From positions 1 through 23,939 of IMG/VR virus record IMGVR_UViG_2823670853_000004: a DNA stretch of 23,939 nucleotides; one strand, written 5' to 3'. The position numbers and the translations under genes are program-made. Positions 12,430-19,150 of the stretch are shown here, one piece after another. Numbering within the stretch: position 1 is the stretch's first letter; each line of letters opens with the position of its first letter. The stretch is from a virus. Its lineage: Duplodnaviria > Heunggongvirae > Uroviricota > Caudoviricetes. The notes under the pieces were generated by a model that worked only from the letters and a program-made list of their open reading frames with translations, ran no database searches and was not told the origin of the DNA.

Positions 12430-12464
12430 TATAACAAACAAAAAAATTTTGTTTGTTATATTTT
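12430..12464. terminator. Bidirectional hairpin between convergent Q and the GmrSD-like gene; T-run on plus strand
   Basis: Perfect inverted repeat TATAACAAACAAAA (12430-12443), loop AAA, TTTTGTTTGTTATA (12447-12460), followed by TTTT (12461-12464). Stem is AT-rich, so strength is uncertain. The minus-strand stop codon of the GmrSD-like gene (12456-12458) lies inside the right arm. Confidence 0.5.
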
Positions 12465-14039
12465 ACCTGTCATAGCTTTTAAAGCAAGTTCATTTAAATC
12501 CTCTTCGCGCTGGTTTATAAAATCACCATAAGCACTCTTTCCATTCCGTAGATTCGGATGAATCACCGCAGCATCAAAGATCATATCCCTCTCAGCCTCA
12601 TGCACTGTTGGAAAGTACACATCAGGATTCGAATCTGAAATTTGATTATTATCCTGAGCAGTTAAAAATGCAATATTAGCTATTATATTTGACTCATGAA
12701 ATGGAATTCCTTGCCTAGCCAGGTATGCCTTCGGATATATGTGGTGGAATTGTCTTGAATTATATGCTGACAAAGATGTATCAAGGTCAACCACCTTGCC
12801 TGTAATAAAACTCCGTGGAGACAACTGAGCTAACAAGCAAATAGATGCTTTTGCTGCTGAGGAATTAATTCTCCAAGTTTTTCTAAAAAACCCGGTTTCA
12901 ATTTTAGGTACTGGTTGAATATAATCATCTGGAGTACTTATAACGCTATCCATGGCGATAACATCCTCCATAACATAGGTGTTTGTTCCTGCTTTATATC
13001 TTTGCGAAAATGCACAACACCAAAACCATCTTTTAATTGAACTATATTGATAACCCGTTGGGCGAGAGACCTTTGAGAAAAAATAGGTTATAGGTACTAA
13101 CATTATTGGGAATGGTAAAAAAATTGAATTTTTTATTTTTAGATCATTAGCTAAAAAATCAACGGCATTGCGGATACCTCTTTTTAAATCCTCCATTGCG
13201 GATAGAAGAGTTGTTGGATCAATGTCAATCAAAGTATCAGAATCAATCTTCTTATTGATTATTGCCGTCAAACAACGCATCAAAAGAATTTCATCAATCT
13301 GCTCATATCCAACTGACGCAAGATATTCTTTTAATGAATCCATTTCTGTGCGCAAATCAAATTTTTCTGACCATGTCCAAGCCGTTAGCAACTCAATTGT
13401 ACTTAAACTTGTACCAGATGAGTTAATTCTCTGGAATATTCTACAAACTTCTTGATTACTTCTTTCTTTAATCGTAACAATAGGGAACTCATAATCTTTA
13501 AATTTATCAACTAAATTTGCGATTCTATCTTGCTCATCTGCCGGGAATCGTCTTAATTCAGGCAGTAGTTTTGAGGTATCAAGAATACTGCTTAATGCAA
13601 CACTATTTTTTCCTTTTGGTATATCGACAACATTGCAAAAACTATCCGTAGCAGGAATATAATGTATATTAAATCTAGATGCCAAATCACTGTTTTCTGT
13701 TTTCCTGTGGGCATTGAATACTCCAAATAAAGTTGTTAACCGCTGCTGCCCATCCAAAACATAATTAACAGGATAATCTTCTTTCACGTCAGGAAGATGA
13801 AAACCTCCTACATTTCTTTCAAACTTTAACGGTGTCTTTGTTGACCATAATAACAACGAGCCAACAGGGTAACCACTATAAATGGAGTCAATCAAACCTA
13901 ATATCTGCTCATCCGTCCATACGAAATCACGTTGAAACGCAGGAATTTTAATATTTCCACGGGTAACATCATCCAATAAAGATGCTAATCTTTGGTTACC
14001 TGAATCAATCTTTTTCTTAGAGTTTACATTATTTTCCAT
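12456..14039 (-). CDS. DUF262/DUF1524 (GmrSD-family) putative type IV modification-dependent restriction nuclease
   Basis: 527 aa. N-terminal DUF262 motifs IPAFQRDFVW and VLDGQQRLTTLFG; C-terminal DUF1524-type His-Me finger motifs FHHIYPKA and NIAFLTAQDNNQISDSNP. AGGA ribosome-binding site 6 nt upstream. Gene is AT-rich by eye. Confidence 0.8.
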   Translation of the reverse strand: MENNVNSKKKIDSGNQRLASLLDDVTRGNIKIPAFQRDFVWTDEQILGLIDSIYSGYPVGSLLLWSTKTPLKFERNVGGFHLPDVKEDYPVNYVLDGQQRLTTLFGVFNAHRKTENSDLASRFNIHYIPATDSFCNVVDIPKGKNSVALSSILDTSKLLPELRRFPADEQDRIANLVDKFKDYEFPIVTIKERSNQEVCRIFQRINSSGTSLSTIELLTAWTWSEKFDLRTEMDSLKEYLASVGYEQIDEILLMRCLTAIINKKIDSDTLIDIDPTTLLSAMEDLKRGIRNAVDFLANDLKIKNSIFLPFPIMLVPITYFFSKVSRPTGYQYSSIKRWFWCCAFSQRYKAGTNTYVMEDVIAMDSVISTPDDYIQPVPKIETGFFRKTWRINSSAAKASICLLAQLSPRSFITGKVVDLDTSLSAYNSRQFHHIYPKAYLARQGIPFHESNIIANIAFLTAQDNNQISDSNPDVYFPTVHEAERDMIFDAAVIHPNLRNGKSAYGDFINQREEDLNELALKAMTGKI

Positions 14040-14131
14040 TGATATTCCTCACAGGGGTAAATCTATAATAGAATTTCATAAAATCATAACGTTTTCAATT
14101 GCAACATTACAGTTAAACATCCTTGCGCGCG

Positions 14132-14150
14132 CTCGTATCCCCGCCACGCC
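14132..14150 (-). other. Candidate cos cohesive-end site
   Basis: Minus strand reads GGCGTGGCGGGGATACGAG; first 13 nt match the 186/P2 cohesive end as I recall it (GGCG[T/A]GGCGGGGAAAGCA[T/C]). Lies in a short GC-rich segment between two AT-rich cargo genes. Recalled consensus, not verified. Confidence 0.3.
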
Positions 14151-14195
14151 TGCCCGCTTTATGTAGCAGTTTTCATGCACCTGCATGATCTACGC

Positions 14196-14219
14196 AAAAG
14201 CCCGCCAGAACTGGCGGGC
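14196..14219 (-). terminator. Rho-independent terminator for minus-strand transcription from the A-side cargo genes
   Basis: GC-rich inverted repeat GCCCGCCAG/CTGGCGGGC (14200-14219) followed on the minus strand by TTTTG (complement of 14196-14199). Confidence 0.5.
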
Positions 14220-14323
14220 CTTAACACAAAAGATCCTCAAACGATCATGCGATCTCATGCAGCATAGACATGCGCGTTTATGCAGAATGTGCAAAATCGT
14301 AACATACTCAGTAAGCGTGAAAC

Positions 14324-15001
14324 CTAGAACGTGACAGCCTTGTCAAAGCCAGAAATAATTGTATAAGAAATAGACGAGTTATCAGCCTTGTTCACTTTGA
14401 ACTTGGCACCTTTGTAAGCGATAACGTCACTTCCCTTAGAATCTACAGAAAAATCTGTTGTAAATGCTGCACGAGCCATATCGTTTGCAAATTCACGATA
14501 GGTGAACTTCATTACACCGCCTGCATTTCCATTGTATTCGATAGTCTTAACCAATGAGTTACTAACTCGACACAGCCCATCAGGAACACGTTTGATAGAA
14601 ATTTCTGATGCAGTATAAGAAGTACCATTTGGCGGTGATATCTCATTTTTTGCAGCATCGTAACTAACATAATCAACATAGTTACCGATTTGCCCATAGA
14701 GATTTTTTAACGCAACAGCTTGAGGGTTATGATAATTGCGGTAAATTCCATTCCCCTCACTGCAATATGTACCAGCAGCGATAGAAGACAATGCACCATT
14801 AGCCGCACCAAGTTCTAGTACGTCCGTTTTAAATCCAGTAGCAGATGTGATAATGGGATCGCCCATGTAGGCGGTAGCACTTTGCCCAATAGCAGGCTTC
14901 ACCACTTCAATAGCAGTGATATTTCGGTTAGAAGCATGTGGCACGCAACCAGTTAGGATTACAGCAAGAGATATTGGTAACGCTACATTATTAATTTTCA
15001 T
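14324..15001 (-). CDS. Putative lipoprotein of unknown function (about 225 aa precursor)
   Basis: ORF 14324..15055 trimmed to ATG at 15001: MKINNVALPISLAVILTGC has a signal peptide and lipobox (LTGC). Mature part is Ser/Thr/Asn/Gly/Tyr-rich with alternating-hydrophobic beta-strand character, ends in Phe, two Cys. AT-rich. No family recognised. Confidence 0.6.
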   Translation of the reverse strand: MKINNVALPISLAVILTGCVPHASNRNITAIEVVKPAIGQSATAYMGDPIITSATGFKTDVLELGAANGALSSIAAGTYCSEGNGIYRNYHNPQAVALKNLYGQIGNYVDYVSYDAAKNEISPPNGTSYTASEISIKRVPDGLCRVSNSLVKTIEYNGNAGGVMKFTYREFANDMARAAFTTDFSVDSKGSDVIAYKGAKFKVNKADNSSISYTIISGFDKAVTF

Positions 15002-15025
15002 TTTTAGCCTATTATTCTTTTCTTG

Positions 15026-15060
15026 ACAAAAAACAAGGCGATATCTGATTGACATCGCCT
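15026..15060 (-). terminator. Possible weak terminator between the DinI-like gene and the lipoprotein gene
   Basis: Inverted repeat AGGCGAT/ATCGCCT (15036-15060) with an 11-nt loop, followed on the minus strand by TTGTTTTTTG. Loop is long, so weak. Confidence 0.3.
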
Positions 15061-15114
15061 CTCACTCATATGTAACCCTTTTTGATTAGTAAAAACAAGC
15101 GTCTATTGACAAAA

Positions 15115-15348
15115 TCAATGCAGCCAGCTGTCGTCTTCCCACACCTTCTGCATAATTTTCATCACTTGTTTTCTTTCTTCGTACAGTTGCAGTCCGGTCA
15201 GTTCCACACCGTTAGAGCTACCTTTACGGATACGGATTACCGTTTTGGGATACAGGGGGCGCAGATTGCGGTAAAGCTCGGATTCAAGGGCGTCCAGGGT
15301 AGACTGGCTAATCTTCTGCTCTTTATCGATCATTATTTCAATGCGCAT
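15115..15348 (-). CDS. DinI-family protein (77 aa)
   Basis: ORF-track entry 15115..15420 trimmed to ATG at 15348 (MRIEIMIDKEQ...), GAGGTGA Shine-Dalgarno 5 nt upstream. Aligns by eye with E. coli DinI (MRIE start, LDAL..EL, YP, C-terminal WEDDSWL versus WESADDW). Confidence 0.75.
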   Translation of the reverse strand: MRIEIMIDKEQKISQSTLDALESELYRNLRPLYPKTVIRIRKGSSNGVELTGLQLYEERKQVMKIMQKVWEDDSWLH

Positions 15349-15358
15349 AAAAGTCACC

Positions 15359-15547
15359 TCAGCTGATGACATCCATTGAGCGGTTGTATTCGTGGCTTCT
15401 GATTTTTGCCATGAGTTCATCAGTCAATTCAGAAACCCACTGCAGAGCCAGCCCCTTCTCTTCATCACTACACTCACTAGCCGCTACAAGCTTAAGAAAA
15501 AAATCAATGCGCTGGAGCTTCAAAGACTCCAAAAAATAGTCCTGCAT
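15359..15547 (-). CDS. Small acidic protein (62 aa), first gene of the LexA-controlled operon; possible antirepressor-like (Tum N-terminal-like) protein
   Basis: Strong AGGAGGA ribosome-binding site 4 nt before the ATG; LexA box at the promoter; stop TGA lies 10 nt before the DinI-like ATG. The antirepressor assignment is by analogy with 186 tum, not sequence recognition. Confidence 0.55.
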   Translation of the reverse strand: MQDYFLESLKLQRIDFFLKLVAASECSDEEKGLALQWVSELTDELMAKIRSHEYNRSMDVIS

Positions 15548-15589: not shown

Positions 15590-15608
15590 ACTGTTTATAT
15601 TTACAGTA
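15590..15608. promoter_or_regulatory. LexA (SOS) box overlapping the promoter of the 62-aa/DinI-like operon
   Basis: ACTGTTTATATTTACAGTA, i.e. CTGT-N8-ACAG with an AT-rich spacer, about 45 bp upstream of the 62-aa ORF start; flanked by -35-like TTTACA and -10-like TATACT on the minus strand. Confidence 0.7.
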
Positions 15609-15701: not shown

Positions 15702-18143
15702 TTAATACAGGTTCCGCCACTTATCATCTTCCTGCAAACGCTGGTTCCGATAGAAGATACGCAGGCCTGCTCCTGACGGAATACTGCCGCCGCGAAGGAG
15801 TAAATCGACCTCTTTCTCGCTGCCATCAAATCCTCTGGATTTCAGTTCATAGACGAGATGCTGTCGTTGATGGTCTGTAATTCGCTGTTTGTAGTCTCTA
15901 CGCCGTTTCGGTTTCACCAGACGTAACCTTGCAGCCAGTTCCCGGCGCTCCTTTTTGTTCATACTGTGCAGGTAATCGTGCAACACCTTGTCATCCATGC
16001 GGGTAATGTCCGTTCTGGGGTCCCCATCAGCTGATTTATCTTTCTCCTGTTGGTTCAAATTTTCAGCAAGGGGACAGTTATTGCCACGAGTCCAAGGGGC
16101 GCAAGCGCCCTGGTCGGCTGCCGCCTCCTGAACGTCAACGGCCTTACGAACCATTTTCCACTTCACCGCATGAGTGCAGATCTTGCCCTCTGCAATGGGT
16201 GACCAGATGCCATAAATACGAATACCGTGATCGCCATATGCGGTCGGTTCTTCGTTGATTTCATAAGCAGTTCTGATGAGGTGATATTTGCGGGGAACCA
16301 GTACGCCGCCCTGCTTCATGATGTAGGTGGCAAAACAACCAGCATCAGCAGCAGCCAGGATTGCATCAAGGCGCGGGTTATCCAGTACCGGCGCACCTGC
16401 TTTTTTGTCCCCCTGTTGCCTTGCCGACTGACCAGCCAGCAATCGCAGTTCACGGTAAGCCTGACGCCCCGGAATGCCAAAGAAGCGGAATTGCTGAACA
16501 CGATGCAGAGACGCCCAGGCATTAACGTATTCAGCGTTATCACGCAGGGATTTACCCGTTTCCTTGCTGATCTCGCCAGCCAGACCACGCCCGTCAATGT
16601 TCTTACTGATGTATTTCGCGATGTAGCTTGTTGGCGTACCTTTGCGCGGGTTTATCAGCTCAGACTTAAAGCGTGGTCCCGTGTTATTACCCAGCTCCTC
16701 GCGGTCTTCACGAATGGCAAACTTACGCAACAAAGCAGTAATGGTGCGGCGATCTTTTTTGCGCATAAAACACAACAGGTGCCAGTGAACTGTACCGTCA
16801 TGATGCGGCTCAGCCACCCGCACGCCATACCAGCGCAATCCGGCTTTGTGCATCGCCTTACGAAATGCAGCAAACATGCCGACCAGATAATCACTGCTTT
16901 GTATTACCGTCGTATTTGTCCAGGTCGGGTTGGGCCTGCCGTTATTTAGCGTGGAATGGAAACGTGACGGACAGGTGATGGTGTAGAAAACGGCGCAGTC
17001 ACCGCGCATTTCCGCGATAAGCTCCAGACCTTTAACACAGGCCATCATCTCATTGCGGCGATGCGCAGGGTTGCTGCTGCTGGCGTTTACCACATCCTCC
17101 ATGTCCAGCGTGTCGCCGTCTTCGTTCACCAGTTCATGAGAACGGAAAAACTCCAGCGACTTACGGCGCTGCTCACGTTTATGCATCACGGCTTCATAGC
17201 TGACATAGGGAGATGCTTTTTTGCTGACCAGGCAAACAGCACGCAACTGCTCTTCCCGCCATTCGCAACGCATCTTCCATAATTTCCGGTACCACCAATC
17301 GGCGCACAACATACGCGCCAGCGAACCCGGAATGAGTTCATAGGGCACGGGTTTACGGCGGTTTCTTTTCCGGCGGAGTTGCTCAAACGCAGGCGGTATG
17401 ACATCTAGTCGCAGGGTTTCTGCTGCCACCTTTTCCCATGTCTTGCGGATTTCTTCTGGCTTAACGTCATCGGTGGCATACAAATCGCCACAAGCTGCAT
17501 CAAGGCACATGCTCATATGCGCAGCAACAAGGGTGGACAGGCGTTTCACCTGATCCTGACTCATTTCAGGCAGAATCAGCAGGCCGTCCAGCCCTTCATG
17601 GCTTGCCATAAAGCGAAAAGAAGTGGATAGCTGACTGTCGCGTACATGCTCCAGTCGTTCCAGACATGGCTTAATCGTCTCACGTAAATAGCGGGAATAA
17701 GCCTTTGGCCTGCCCAGGCTGCTGAAGTATTCAATACGTTGCATCAGCGGCTTGCTGATATGGGAGGGCTGGGCGCTGACGTCTGCCAGAATGACCATGT
17801 CCGGGTTAAAACGCTGCTGCTCATGCGCCAACTTTGCCCGGCTAATGAGCTTATCCTGCTCCATTTCGCGCTGGACAGGATCACGGGATTCATTAAAGAA
17901 ATAACGCTCCCAGACCTGATCACTCAGTGCCTCGCGGCGCAGTTGTTCCTGCTCGTTATCGGTAGCGTACAGAGTGATCAGGTTTGAAAGCGCAGAAACC
18001 GGCGCAACTTCCGCCGGGTCCAGATAAGGGTTAATGGCTTTCTTAGGTAAATTCCACGAATAACCCCCGGCAGAATTCTCAATGCTACCGGAAGTTACAC
18101 TGACAAATGGATCGGCAAGACGGCCTGTGCTGATCTCTGTCAC
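15702..18143 (-). CDS. A: Replication initiation protein / rolling-circle endonuclease (gpA-like)
   Basis: 813 aa in the P2 A position, last gene of the early operon; contains a [12 protein letters not shown]-type Rep motif; start overlaps the upstream stop (ATGA). Confidence 0.9.
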
Positions 18144-19150
18144 TCACAGACTCCTGCATATACACTGCTGCACACCGCTTTATCATTCATGCCTGCCAGC
18201 AGGTCAAACTGCATACCGCCCCGAGTCGTTAAGGCCCAGTCCCGATAAGTTTCAATGCCATAAGCATCAACAGTTATGACTTCGATCCGTTTTTCAGCAC
18301 GGCGCGGATCATGCGTGGATGGAAAGAACGTTGAATTGCCACGTCTTGAACATTCCGCAACCAGTCTTTCCCACTCAGCCACTCGGCGGATTTCTTCTGG
18401 CCAGCGTTGGAAAATCTCTCCAAGTTCTGACTTGCGAGCATGAATGCATGGCATACAACCGACACGACTGCATCCCTGCATATAAAGGGGGTTAGGCTTA
18501 ATGCCATGACGTTTGGCAATAGCAAACACATCCTCATGCAGCCAATTAAGGATCGGACGATAAACATGCAGCCCCAGAGTATTGTCTGCATCGTCCTCCC
18601 ACTCAGGCAACAATGCACGTTCCGGTGATTCCTGCCCCCGGACTCCTTGCCAACTGATTACCTCATCGTATTCATCCAGAGCTGGATCGATTACCTGTGT
18701 ACGTATTGGTTCATGTTTCAGTTCAAAAGTGCAGAAACGAGCTTTTGTTGAAGGGAAGCGACCTTTCCACATGCACAAATCAAGAAACGGAACGCCGGTT
18801 GGTTTAAGGATTTCCAGTGCCCGGTAAATACGTTCCTCAGCCTCATCTGTCGACATACCACATTCCTCAACGAGAGAAATGGGCCACTTTTCCGCAATGA
18901 ATTTACGTTTCCCTTCTATCTGGCGTGTGAAATCCGCTTTGACGCGAATAATCTTGCCCAGCTTTGATTCCAGATAATCCAGATATTCTATTGTCTGTGG
19001 ATGTTCATGACCCGTATCGGCAAATACAGAAATATGCGGAACATCGTTTTCAATGGCTCTTAGCCATTGAGCGAGACTATCTTTGCCACCAGAAGTAGTG
19101 ATGACGTTAATGGTGCCTGAGGCAAAGCAACGCGGATCGATAGCATTCAT
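18140..19150 (-). CDS. PAPS-reductase-family (PP-loop ATP pyrophosphatase, DndC-like) protein
   Basis: 336 aa; N-terminal PP-loop TTSGGKDS; C-terminal Cys cluster ([11 protein letters not shown]); ATGA coupling to Dam upstream and A downstream. Confidence 0.8.

What the first reader, a model, noticed from the sequence alone, without database searches (positions are those of the whole stretch)
14324..15001. Unrecognised AT-rich lipoprotein gene at the tin/old position
A roughly 225-aa predicted lipoprotein (lipobox LTGC) with a Ser/Thr/Asn/Tyr-rich, beta-strand-like mature region ending in Phe occupies the slot where P2-like phages carry defence or exclusion genes. I recognise no family for it. 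Short envelope lipoproteins in prophages are often superinfection-exclusion or receptor-masking factors (Cor, Llp, Bor-like), but this one is much larger than those. It is the best candidate here for an undescribed function.
Basis: partly seen in the sequence, partly recalled or inferred. Interest (0 to 1): 0.6.

Follow-up and report, generated by a model that had tools for sequence, protein, structure and literature searches.

The report
Orphan prophage outer-membrane lipoprotein cassette
A P2-like prophage carries, as the last gene before its DNA-packaging site, a strongly conserved gene for an outer-membrane lipoprotein from a large, unstudied family that several kinds of temperate phage and phage-plasmid also carry; it probably changes the host's cell envelope, perhaps to keep other phages out, but this has never been tested.

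Summary
Window 14324-15001 (- strand) encodes a 225-aa prolipoprotein (lipobox LTG|C19). It is a real gene: dN/dS is 0.05 between alleles, and the same protein occurs in E. coli, Klebsiella and Salmonella P2-like phages.

The gene sits on a discrete 843-bp low-GC cassette (14274-15116) between an SOS-controlled tum/DinI-like operon and the cos site, which I located at 14132-14150. This is P2's tin/old slot, and the gene is the last one on the virion chromosome. The neighbouring DUF262 nuclease lies across cos in a separate slot. That slot holds 25 different cargoes, or none, in 50 lipoprotein-carrying loci, so the lipoprotein works alone.

Family members have an even number of mature cysteines and never Asp at +2. 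This points to an oxidised, outer-membrane-sorted protein.

The function is inferred only. The most likely role is envelope-level exclusion of other phages (about 0.35-0.4); a host-fitness role is the main rival.

The parts
14324..15001 (-). Prolipoprotein CDS: 225 aa, ATG at 15001-14999, TAG stop at 14326-14324. The mature protein is 206 aa, 21.9 kDa, and predicted all-beta.
   Evidence: dN/dS is 0.05. Full-length match to phrog_1353, E 3e-105. The protein is identical to WP_000700647.1.
14945..15001 (-). Signal peptide (residues 1-18) plus the lipidated Cys19. The lipobox L16-T17-G18-C19 is at 14956-14945. The +2 residue is Val (no Asp).
   Evidence: Sequence. Cys19 and Gly18 are invariant in alignments A1 and A2. 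190 of 196 family members have a lipobox, and none of those 190 has Asp at +2.
14274..15116 (-). The 843-bp low-GC (39.6%) lipoprotein cassette. It is a discrete insertion/deletion relative to P2-like phages that lack the gene.
   Evidence: In Escherichia phage 500465-1, homology to the window runs 14123-14273 and resumes at 15117, with only 83 bp in between. In Salmonella phage SEN8 the same slot holds a different gene. GC.
15035..15061 (-). Terminator-like hairpin (11-bp stem, then U6) between the DinI-like gene and the lipoprotein start codon.
   Evidence: centroid -16.6 kcal/mol, z -4.1. The stem is kept through compensatory changes in an 83%-identical allele.
14132..14150 (-). cos cohesive-end sequence. 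The - strand reads GGCGTGGCGGGGATACGAG.
   Evidence: It aligns with the annotated cosL of P2 and cos of 186. The SEN8 genome record ends exactly at window 14151.
14123..14273 (.). Conserved cos region shared with P2-like phages that lack the lipoprotein. It contains a strong hairpin at about 14222-14197 (- strand, followed by UUUU) that may also terminate lipoprotein transcription.
   Evidence: 94% identity to phage 500465-1; centroid -25 kcal/mol, z -5.6.
15115..15348 (-). DinI-like gene, the conserved upstream flank of the cassette.
   Evidence: Pfam DinI, E 1e-21. Annotated in the identical E. coli record.
15359..15547 (-). 62-aa ORF that heads the operon containing the DinI-like gene. Its position matches that of the 186 tum antirepressor; this comparison rests on my own knowledge and was not tested.
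15591..15606 (+). Perfect LexA-box core, CTGTTTATATTTACAG, upstream of the 62-aa ORF. It marks an SOS-controlled promoter region.
   Evidence: It is the only match in the window (0.29 expected by chance).
12456..14039 (-). Neighbouring DUF262/GmrSD_N protein (527 aa) in the separate cos-gpQ slot. It is a candidate defence nuclease and is not a partner of the lipoprotein.
   Evidence: Pfam GmrSD_N, E 2.8e-35. PADLOC PDC-M55C, E 1.6e-64. This slot holds 25 different cargo types in 50 lipoprotein-carrying loci.

Best explanation
The feature is an autonomous accessory ('moron') cassette of a 186/Fels-2-type P2-like prophage.

Shown by the sequence:
- It encodes a prolipoprotein with a signal peptide and the lipobox LTG|C19.
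- There is no Asp at +2, so under the E. coli Lol sorting rule the protein should be anchored in the outer membrane.
- The mature protein is a 22-kDa all-beta protein. It has a variable N-terminal half and a C-terminal domain of about 85 aa that is conserved across phyla (motifs Y-R-E-F...A-R and Y-K-G-A). In this subgroup one Cys pair (C80/C144) is conserved and is read as a disulfide.
- The cassette occupies the DinI-cos slot. This is P2's tin/old slot, and the gene is the last one at the right end of the packaged chromosome.
- It is inherited independently of the defence gene on the other side of cos.

Inferred:
- The lipoprotein is made in the lysogen, or in the SOS-induced cell.
- Its conserved C-terminal domain binds a conserved envelope component.
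- Through this it blocks adsorption or DNA entry of other phages, that is, superinfection exclusion in the manner of Cor, Llp or TraT.

I rate the anatomy at about 0.9 and the exclusion mechanism itself at about 0.35-0.4.
For: Real, selected gene:
- dN/dS is 0.02-0.06.
- The protein is identical or 99% identical across E. coli, Klebsiella and Salmonella phages.

Envelope location:
- The lipobox and Cys are invariant.
- 190 of 196 relatives have a lipobox, and none of those 190 has Asp at +2.
- 181 of those 190 have an even number of mature cysteines. Cys pairs appear and disappear together in the alignment, which points to disulfides and hence a periplasmic or outer-membrane location.
- No hydrophobic segment occurs after the signal peptide.

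Discrete cassette in a known exclusion/defence slot:
- cos is mapped by alignment to the P2 and 186 cos sites and by the end of the SEN8 record.
- The cassette is an 843-bp indel relative to phage 500465-1.
- It has low GC and is flanked by hairpins.
- P2 carries tin and old at this locus, and the gpA-gpQ region is a validated anti-phage hotspot (PMC9122126).

Autonomy:
- 50 loci keep the order DinI-lipoprotein-cos, while the cos-portal slot holds 25 distinct cargoes and is empty in 4 loci.
- Seven or more different neighbours were seen in annotated genomes.

Recurrent carriage by unrelated temperate elements:
- P2-like myophages.
- Acinetobacter, Moraxella and Pseudocitrobacter siphoprophages, where the gene lies just upstream of the tape-measure gene.
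- SSU5-like phage-plasmids.
- A Klebsiella integrative element that also carries an AbiC-like gene.
- 177 IMG/VR contigs in total.

Long-term retention: 75-83% alleles sit in the same slot in phages whose gpA is only 70-72% identical.
Against: - No experiment on any family member was found.
- No homology to any known exclusion protein was found.
- No defence model matches (PADLOC).
- The family also has chromosomal members outside any recognisable phage, in Methylotuvimicrobium and Oceanicoccus, and it reaches Geobacter, Flavobacterium, Nitrospirota and a Pirellulales MAG. A family with a general cellular role can look like this.
- Both halves of the protein are under uniform purifying selection, with no sign of an arms race.
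- P2-type phages adsorb to LPS (my own knowledge), which a lipoprotein cannot easily mask, so self-exclusion is not the obvious reading.
- No convincing sigma-70 promoter lies between the upstream hairpin and the ATG in this allele, so expression in the lysogen is not established.
- The only expression hint is that the Fels-2 orthologue (STM2726) is listed in a predicted operon with the DinI-like and STM2728 genes in a study of cells treated with the mutagen MX (PMC2225428). That would fit expression during induction rather than lysogeny.
Confidence: 0.4

Rival explanations
1. It is a lysogenic-conversion factor that benefits the bacterial host directly rather than blocking phages. Examples would be serum or complement resistance, envelope-stress tolerance or adhesion, as with lambda Bor or plasmid TraT's serum-resistance role.
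For: It is an outer-membrane lipoprotein moron with low GC. It is widespread in clinical Klebsiella, E. coli and Salmonella prophages. Selection is uniformly purifying, which suggests a conserved target. The family also exists in bacterial chromosomes, so a cellular function exists.
Against: There is no similarity to Bor or TraT beyond the signal peptide. Many family members come from environmental and marine bacteria and from non-pathogens, so a host-animal-specific role cannot be general. The cassette sits in a slot where tested cargo has mostly proved to be anti-phage (PMC9122126).
Confidence: 0.25
2. It works for the phage during the lytic cycle. It would be made after SOS induction or with the late tail genes, and it would keep progeny virions from adsorbing to or ejecting into debris and already-infected cells (the T5 Llp logic), or it would assist envelope disruption.
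For: It lies directly downstream of a LexA-box-controlled operon. The Fels-2 orthologue is listed in one predicted operon with that operon's genes in MX-treated cells. In the siphoviral relatives the gene lies within tail-gene clusters: just upstream of the tape-measure gene in annotated prophages, and just upstream of a same-strand ORF of at least 900 aa in 13 of 23 distant viral loci.
Against: A strong terminator-like hairpin separates it from the SOS operon. In a Klebsiella element and on the phage-plasmids it is a stand-alone unit, with a promoter-like site or a flanking bidirectional terminator of its own. The chromosomal members have no phage cycle to serve.
Confidence: 0.15
3. It is a protective binder or inhibitor of periplasm-acting enzymes or toxins, such as lysozymes, tail-associated peptidoglycan hydrolases, T6SS effectors or bacteriocins. 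This would be an 'orphan immunity' lipoprotein.
For: The conserved polar patch in the C-terminal domain (invariant Y156, Y168-R169-E170, R177 and Y196-K197) suggests a binding site kept across phyla. Known inhibitors of this kind (MliC, PliG, many T6SS immunity proteins) are small beta-rich periplasmic lipoproteins; this comparison is from my own knowledge. The family is widely distributed in chromosomes.
Against: No fold or sequence match to any such inhibitor was found. No toxin or effector gene recurs next to family members.
Confidence: 0.1
4. It is one component of a two-gene defence system together with the adjacent DUF262 nuclease.
For: The two genes are adjacent, on the same strand and both low in GC.
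Against: cos lies between them, so they sit at opposite ends of the packaged genome. Hairpins lie between them. In 50 lipoprotein-carrying loci the partner slot holds 25 unrelated cargoes and is empty in 4. DUF262 cargo also occurs in hotspot arrangements that do not list this lipoprotein accession (supplement of PMC9122126).
Confidence: 0.03

Closest known systems
Cor (phi80/N15/HK022) and Llp (T5) superinfection-exclusion lipoproteins
   Same: All are phage-encoded, Sec/SPase II-type outer-membrane lipoproteins carried as accessory genes. They are stand-alone and act, or are proposed to act, at the envelope against incoming phages. This description of Cor and Llp is from my own knowledge.
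   Different: Cor and Llp are only about 60-80 aa when mature and are specific for FhuA. This protein is 206 aa with two beta domains. It matched only phrog_1353 and two PHROGs of unknown function at E up to 1, so it matched no PHROG with an assigned function. No fold match was found. Its family extends far beyond hosts that have FhuA.
TraT (F-plasmid surface-exclusion and serum-resistance lipoprotein, Pfam PF05818)
   Same: Similar size (243-aa precursor against 225 aa). Both are outer-membrane lipoproteins carried by a mobile element. TraT's roles in exclusion and resistance are from my own knowledge.
   Different: There is no homology: hhalign probability is 2.5% and only the lipobox region aligns. 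There is no Pfam hit. This gene is phage-borne and not part of a tra operon.
Lambda Bor / Iss (Pfam PF06291)
   Same: Both are prophage moron lipoproteins with their own transcription signals.
   Different: Bor is 97 aa. Only the 26-residue signal peptide aligns.
P2 tin and old
   Same: They occupy the same genomic slot, between the replication/DinI-side genes and cos at the right end of the genome.
   Different: From my own knowledge, Tin and Old are cytoplasmic proteins: Tin poisons T-even replication and Old is an ATPase-TOPRIM nuclease. This protein is exported and lipidated, and it matched no PADLOC defence model.
Ltp of Streptococcus thermophilus phage TP-J34
   Same: From my own knowledge, Ltp is a prophage lipoprotein that blocks DNA injection by acting on the incoming tape-measure protein. 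It is of interest because more than half of the distant viral homologues here sit directly upstream of a tape-measure-sized gene.
   Different: Ltp comes from a Gram-positive host and is helical. No similarity was detected. The link to the tape measure here is purely positional.

Membership tests
Bacterial lipoproteins (SPase II / Lgt substrates) | N-terminal signal peptide with a positive n-region, a hydrophobic core and a lipobox [LVI][ASTVI][GAS]C | tested here: met
   The sequence MK-INNVALPISLAVI-LTG-C19. Gly18 and Cys19 are invariant in A1 and A2. 190 of 196 relatives have a lipobox.
Bacterial lipoproteins (SPase II / Lgt substrates) | Actual lipidation and cleavage; outer-membrane sorting | not testable with these tools
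   Only indirect evidence is available: no Asp at +2 in any of the 190 relatives with a lipobox, and an even Cys count in 181 of those 190.
phrog_1353 (PHROGs v4, function unknown) | Full-length match to the family profile | tested here: met
   E 3.1e-105 over residues 1-223 of the protein and positions 1-230 of the 230-position profile. The Acinetobacter, Moraxella, phage-plasmid and Klebsiella homologues match the same PHROG.
P2 gpA-gpQ cos-proximal hotspot cargo (Rousset et al. 2022) | Located between gpA and gpQ next to cos; variably present among related prophages | tested here: met
   cos is at 14132-14150. The gene is present in 50 of 5426 E. coli genomes, against 1281 genomes that match the surrounding query. 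It is listed in the paper's hotspot table as 'hypothetical'.
P2 gpA-gpQ cos-proximal hotspot cargo (Rousset et al. 2022) | Confers anti-phage activity | not testable with these tools
   No PADLOC model matches. The main texts of the two hotspot papers do not contain the word 'lipoprotein', so I found no sign that it was tested.
Moron (Juhala/Hendrix sense) | Discrete extra gene between genes that are adjacent in related phages, with deviant base composition | tested here: met
   An 843-bp indel against 83 bp in phage 500465-1. GC is 39.6% against about 51% for the window.
Moron (Juhala/Hendrix sense) | Own promoter and terminator | tested here: inconclusive
   Strong hairpins flank the gene. 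No convincing sigma-70 promoter lies upstream of the ATG in this allele. Diverged alleles and the Klebsiella homologue have promoter-like sites.
Cor / Llp exclusion lipoproteins | Sequence or fold homology to Cor or Llp | tested here: not met
TraT (PF05818) | Homology of the mature protein | tested here: not met
   hhalign probability 2.5%, with 20 aligned columns in the signal peptide. No Pfam hit.
Lambda Bor/Iss (PF06291) | Homology of the mature protein | tested here: not met
   Only residues 1-28 (the signal peptide) align. No Pfam hit.
Integral outer-membrane beta-barrel proteins | Transmembrane barrel fold with a C-terminal Phe beta-signal | tested here: not met

The most novel reading that the evidence does not exclude
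phrog_1353 is a previously unrecognised family of outer-membrane lipoproteins with no detectable fold relative. Temperate phages of several morphotypes, and phage-plasmids, use it to block phage DNA entry. It would do so by binding a conserved envelope component or the ejected tape-measure/ejection proteins through the conserved C-terminal domain, with the variable N-terminal half setting specificity. Chromosomal copies would be domesticated or ancestral versions.
Probability: 0.3. Interest if true: 0.7.

Novelty: new variant of a known kind. Interest (0 to 1): 0.5.

Why it matters
Hotspot surveys of P2-like phages have concentrated on cytoplasmic defence systems. This gene has been carried along in their tables as an unnamed 'hypothetical'.

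It is one of the most stably kept accessory genes of the Fels-2/186-type lineage, and it is present in clinical Klebsiella, E. coli and Salmonella. It represents a family of at least 2,400 sequence clusters with no Pfam entry and no known fold relative, and at least four unrelated kinds of temperate element have acquired that family.

If it excludes phages at the envelope, three things follow. It would add a new, widespread class of entry-blocking protein. It would matter for phage-therapy host-range prediction in Klebsiella and Acinetobacter. It would also show that the gpA-gpQ 'hotspot' is really two slots with very different turnover. If it instead serves host fitness, it is a new lysogenic-conversion factor in major pathogens.

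Tried and rejected
- Curated family searches with the protein (Pfam, NCBIfam, PADLOC) and with divergent or longer relatives (Pfam only) found nothing meaningful.
- PDB sequence searches with the single protein and with a profile found nothing.
- The AFDB50 library was not available, so annotated AlphaFold relatives could not be checked.
- The two-gene system with DUF262 is rejected on the cos position and on cargo turnover.
- The 243-aa annotation used in Fels-2 is rejected. The extension overlaps the hairpin and is not conserved.
- The promoter-like site TTGTCA-18-AAAAAT at 15029-15000 is rejected. Its -10 element overlaps the start codon, so it cannot serve this ORF.
- The 186 cos sequence searched with up to 3 mismatches found nothing. 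Alignment then showed that the first 13 nt are identical and the rest diverged.
- Neighbour clustering over 60 genome loci found no conserved partner gene. Only integrases and siphophage tail genes recur.
- Literature searches by locus tag, accession and PHROG number, and by exclusion-lipoprotein terms, found no study of the protein. The hotspot papers do not discuss it.
- A domain-wise dN/dS scan looked for arms-race signal and found none.
Full report
**1. The observation**

The - strand carries an ORF from 15055 to 14324. It has a Lys-containing n-region, a hydrophobic core and the lipobox L-T-G-C19.

The 18-codon extension used in the Fels-2 annotation (243 aa) overlaps a strong hairpin. 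It is absent from diverged homologues, which begin at MK. NCBI's pipeline annotates the 678-nt form.

The mature protein is 206 aa, 21.9 kDa, pI 7.8 and 31% S+T+N+Y. It has no hydrophobic segment after the signal peptide and ends in Phe. The gene has 40.7% GC and GC3 of 31%, against 52.6% and 56% for gpA.

It is under strong purifying selection. Against a 94% allele there are 35 synonymous and 7 non-synonymous differences (dN/dS 0.05). Against 76-83% alleles, dN/dS is 0.02-0.06 in both halves of the protein.

**2. Anatomy of the locus**

The window is a 186/Fels-2-type P2-like prophage. It carries a CI repressor, CII, an integrase, a Dam methylase, gpA, the terminase ATPase and the portal.

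On the - strand, window 14150-14132 reads GGCGTGGCGGGGATACGAG. This aligns with the annotated cohesive ends of P2 (GGCGAGGCGGGGAAAGCAC) and 186 (GGCGTGGCGGGGAAAGCAT), and the alignment continues into the following GCGCGC block. The genome record of Salmonella phage SEN8 ends exactly at window 14151. So cos lies between the lipoprotein gene and the DUF262 gene.

In the packaged chromosome the lipoprotein gene is therefore the last gene at the right end. This is the place of tin and old in P2 (P2 map from my own knowledge). The DUF262 gene lies at the left end, between cos and the portal gene Q, where P2 and 186 have nothing.

Comparison with Escherichia phage 500465-1 defines the cassette sharply. 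Homology covers 14123-14273 (the cos region, 94% identity) and resumes at 15117 (the DinI-like gene, 97.5% identity), with only 83 bp between them in that phage. The cassette is therefore 14274-15116, 843 bp, 39.6% GC. SEN8 carries a different gene, on the other strand, in the same slot.

**3. Independence from the neighbouring defence gene**

In annotated genomes the gene between the lipoprotein and the portal varies. It is DUF262 here, AIPR, PIN, a TIR-containing set, a STAS-like set, or different hypothetical proteins in E. coli HS and in Fels-2.

I compared 49 IMG/VR P2-like contigs plus the window. The order DinI-lipoprotein-cos is fixed, with the lipoprotein stop 50 nt from the cos block. 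The cos-portal interval falls into 25 unrelated sequence types, and in four contigs it is only 167-244 bp, that is, empty.

Alleles that are only 75-83% identical in nucleotide sequence occupy the same slot in phages whose gpA is 70-72% identical. The lipoprotein is therefore a long-kept resident of one lineage, not a recent or fast-cycling cargo.

It is still accessory. Fifty of 5426 complete E. coli genomes carry it, against 1281 that match parts of the surrounding 3.7-kb query, which spans the portal end, the DinI-like gene and the neighbouring ORF. The gpA-gpQ 'hotspot' of the literature (PMC9122126) thus consists here of two slots with very different turnover.

**4. The protein**

AlphaFold2 with a 22-sequence alignment gives a confident all-beta model. 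Mean pLDDT is 80, about 90 for residues 30-220; pTM is 0.60; there are 17 strands.

Invariant residues across the enterobacterial group include C19, C80 and C144. In more distant members the C80/C144 pair is lost and another pair appears, and some members have both pairs.

Across 196 relatives, 190 have a lipobox. Of those 190, 181 have an even number of mature cysteines (152 have two, 23 have four), and none has Asp at +2. Together these features indicate an oxidised, extracytoplasmic protein that the Lol system would send to the outer membrane. The Lol +2 rule is established knowledge; the sorting itself is inferred.

Conservation across the whole family is concentrated in two places. One is a short N-terminal motif (P..G....Y.GD). 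The other is the C-terminal domain of about 85 residues (IEYNG...FTYREF...MAR.AF..D...D......YKGA...V..A.N..I.Y.V...F).

**5. The family**

The protein is a full-length member of phrog_1353, function unknown (E 3e-105). So are the Acinetobacter, Moraxella, phage-plasmid and Klebsiella-element homologues.

A profile search of the 90%-clustered collection scored 1558 clusters, a number capped by the candidate limit. An exhaustive HMMER search of 1.84 billion 50%-identity representatives found 2434 at E <= 1e-3 and 1256 at E <= 1e-10. Almost all are 205-245 aa. The few longer ones (314-381 aa) only have a larger N-terminal part and no Pfam domain. All names given by sources are 'hypothetical protein' or 'lipoprotein'.

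Contexts found:
- P2-like myophages.
- Acinetobacter, Moraxella and Pseudocitrobacter siphoprophages, where the gene sits immediately upstream of the tape-measure gene. In 13 of 23 distant IMG/VR loci, a same-strand ORF of at least 900 aa starts 17-2456 nt downstream. I take these ORFs to be tape-measure genes from their size and by analogy; I did not verify this.
- SSU5-like IncFIB phage-plasmids of E. coli, Shigella, Citrobacter and Klebsiella, where it is a stand-alone gene next to replication genes, and Edwardsiella plasmids.
- A Klebsiella integrative element with serine recombinases and an AbiC-like gene.
- Ordinary chromosomal surroundings in Methylotuvimicrobium and Oceanicoccus.

The species-level genome scan returned 60 loci from Gamma-, Beta- and Alphaproteobacteria, Geobacter, Flavobacterium, a Nitrospirota MAG and a Pirellulales MAG. 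Nearly all have a lipobox. There is no conserved neighbour; only integrases (7 loci) and siphophage tail genes recur.

**6. Searches for a known relative**

- Pfam and PADLOC gave no hits. NCBIfam gave only a 13.9-bit match against a cut-off of 366.
- PDB sequence searches with the single protein and with a profile gave nothing relevant.
- Foldseek against the PDB and BFVD gave no hit at E <= 1e-3.
- AFDB50 could not be searched.
- Profile comparison with F-plasmid TraT and lambda Bor aligned only the signal peptides.

As far as these libraries show, the fold has no characterised relative.

**7. Expression clues**

A perfect LexA-box core (CTGTTTATATTTACAG, 15591-15606) precedes a 62-aa ORF and the DinI-like gene. 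From my own knowledge, this resembles the SOS-controlled tum region of 186.

An 11-bp hairpin with a U6 tail follows the DinI-like gene and lies 34 nt upstream of the lipoprotein ATG. Its stem is kept through compensatory changes in an 83% allele. The only promoter-like match between this hairpin and the ATG has a -10 element that overlaps the start codon, so it cannot serve this ORF.

More diverged alleles have a promoter-like TTGATG-17-TATGAT in place of the hairpin. The Klebsiella homologue has an extended -10 promoter-like site. The phage-plasmid copy is followed by a bidirectional terminator.

Downstream of the window gene, a strong hairpin followed by UUUU lies inside the conserved cos region.

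The only published trace of expression is weak. STM2726-STM2727-STM2728 is listed as one predicted operon in a study of Salmonella treated with the mutagen MX (PMC2225428). It remains open whether the gene is expressed in the lysogen, on induction, or both.

**8. Mechanism**

Shown:
- A selected, autonomous cassette.
- It encodes an exported, lipidation-competent, disulfide-containing beta protein with outer-membrane sorting features.
- It sits in a slot that holds exclusion genes in P2.
- Homologues are carried by at least four unrelated kinds of temperate element.

Inferred: it acts at the envelope on something conserved. The conserved C-terminal domain and the uniform purifying selection support this. 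The benefit that best explains repeated capture by temperate phages is exclusion of competing phages at adsorption or DNA entry. I put this at about 0.35-0.4.

Rivals:
- A direct host-fitness factor of the Bor/TraT serum-resistance kind (0.25).
- A role in the phage's own lytic cycle, such as protecting progeny from debris as T5 Llp does (0.15).
- An inhibitor or 'immunity' protein against periplasm-acting enzymes or toxins (0.1).
- Partnership with DUF262 (0.03, effectively refuted).

The frequent placement beside the tape-measure gene in siphoviruses is unexplained. It could be only a permissive insertion site. It could also hint at a link to the DNA-ejection machinery, as with Ltp of TP-J34 (my own knowledge).

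**9. Comparison with known systems, and novelty**

The protein would work like Cor, Llp or TraT if the leading model is right. It is a member of none of them; every homology test failed. It meets the positional and compositional definition of a moron and of P2 hotspot cargo. Its only family assignment is phrog_1353.

The gene is already present in databases and in the supplementary hotspot table of Rousset et al. as 'hypothetical', so its existence is not new. The following appear not to have been described in the papers I could search:
- the cos-split two-slot anatomy;
- the gene's autonomy and long-term retention;
- the size and reach of the family;
- the lack of any detectable fold relative;
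- its recurrence in different temperate elements.

I rate it a new variant of a known kind (phage accessory envelope lipoproteins), with interest 0.5. It is a good, cheap experimental target, but no surprising mechanism is demonstrated.

Noticed in passing
window 14132-14150 (and the conserved block 14123-14273): The prophage's cos site lies between the two low-GC accessory genes. The literature's single gpA-gpQ hotspot is therefore two slots here. The DinI-cos slot changes slowly. The cos-gpQ slot changes fast, with 25 cargo types in 50 loci.
   Followed up: yes
window 12456-14039 (- strand): A 527-aa DUF262/GmrSD_N protein with a C-terminal HHIYPK motif. Its best PADLOC match is the candidate system PDC-M55C (E 1.6e-64), with weaker matches to HEC-05 and SspE models. 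It is probably a stand-alone defence nuclease in the cos-gpQ slot. Only one complete E. coli genome matched the whole 3.7-kb query that contains it.
   Followed up: partly
window 15591-15606, upstream of ORF 15547-15359 and the DinI-like gene 15348-15115: A perfect LexA-box core precedes a 62-aa ORF plus a DinI-like gene. This looks like an SOS-controlled, 186 tum-like induction operon.
   Followed up: partly
window 18140-19150 (- strand): A 336-aa protein with a PAPS-reductase domain (Pfam, E 5.7e-34) sits between gpA and the Dam methylase. Fels-2 has no such annotated gene between its Dam-like methylase and its gpA-like gene. This may be another accessory insertion.
   Followed up: no
loci L005, L006, L016-L018, L057, and L147-L166 (IMG/VR): In siphoviral prophages of Acinetobacter, Moraxella and Pseudocitrobacter, and in 13 of 23 distant viral contigs, the family member lies directly upstream of the tape-measure gene or of a same-strand ORF of at least 900 aa. 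In Ab1656-2 it follows a DUF4258/HTH pair. The reason for this preferred position is unknown.
   Followed up: partly
loci L085 and L086 (plasmids NZ_OP242218.1 and NZ_CP081792.1): Homologues about 37% identical occur on non-mobilizable IncFIB plasmids of about 95-120 kb that carry phage tail-fibre, DnaB-like helicase, primase and ligase genes (SSU5-like phage-plasmids). Each is a stand-alone gene transcribed divergently from the replication genes.
   Followed up: partly
protein collection, cluster of the query protein: The 90%-identity cluster that holds this exact lipoprotein has a 308-aa branched-chain amino-acid aminotransferase as its representative, and it mixes the two unrelated proteins. 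This is a clustering artefact. It probably explains why the first homology search did not list an identical full-length hit.
   Followed up: no
window 15035-15061 versus loci L124, L126, L128 (alignment A4): The region upstream of the lipoprotein gene exists in two forms. One is a hairpin-plus-U-tract form (this allele and the 83-94% alleles, with compensatory stem changes). The other is a form with a sigma-70-like promoter (the 75-76% alleles). This suggests different modes of expression control in sister lineages.
   Followed up: partly
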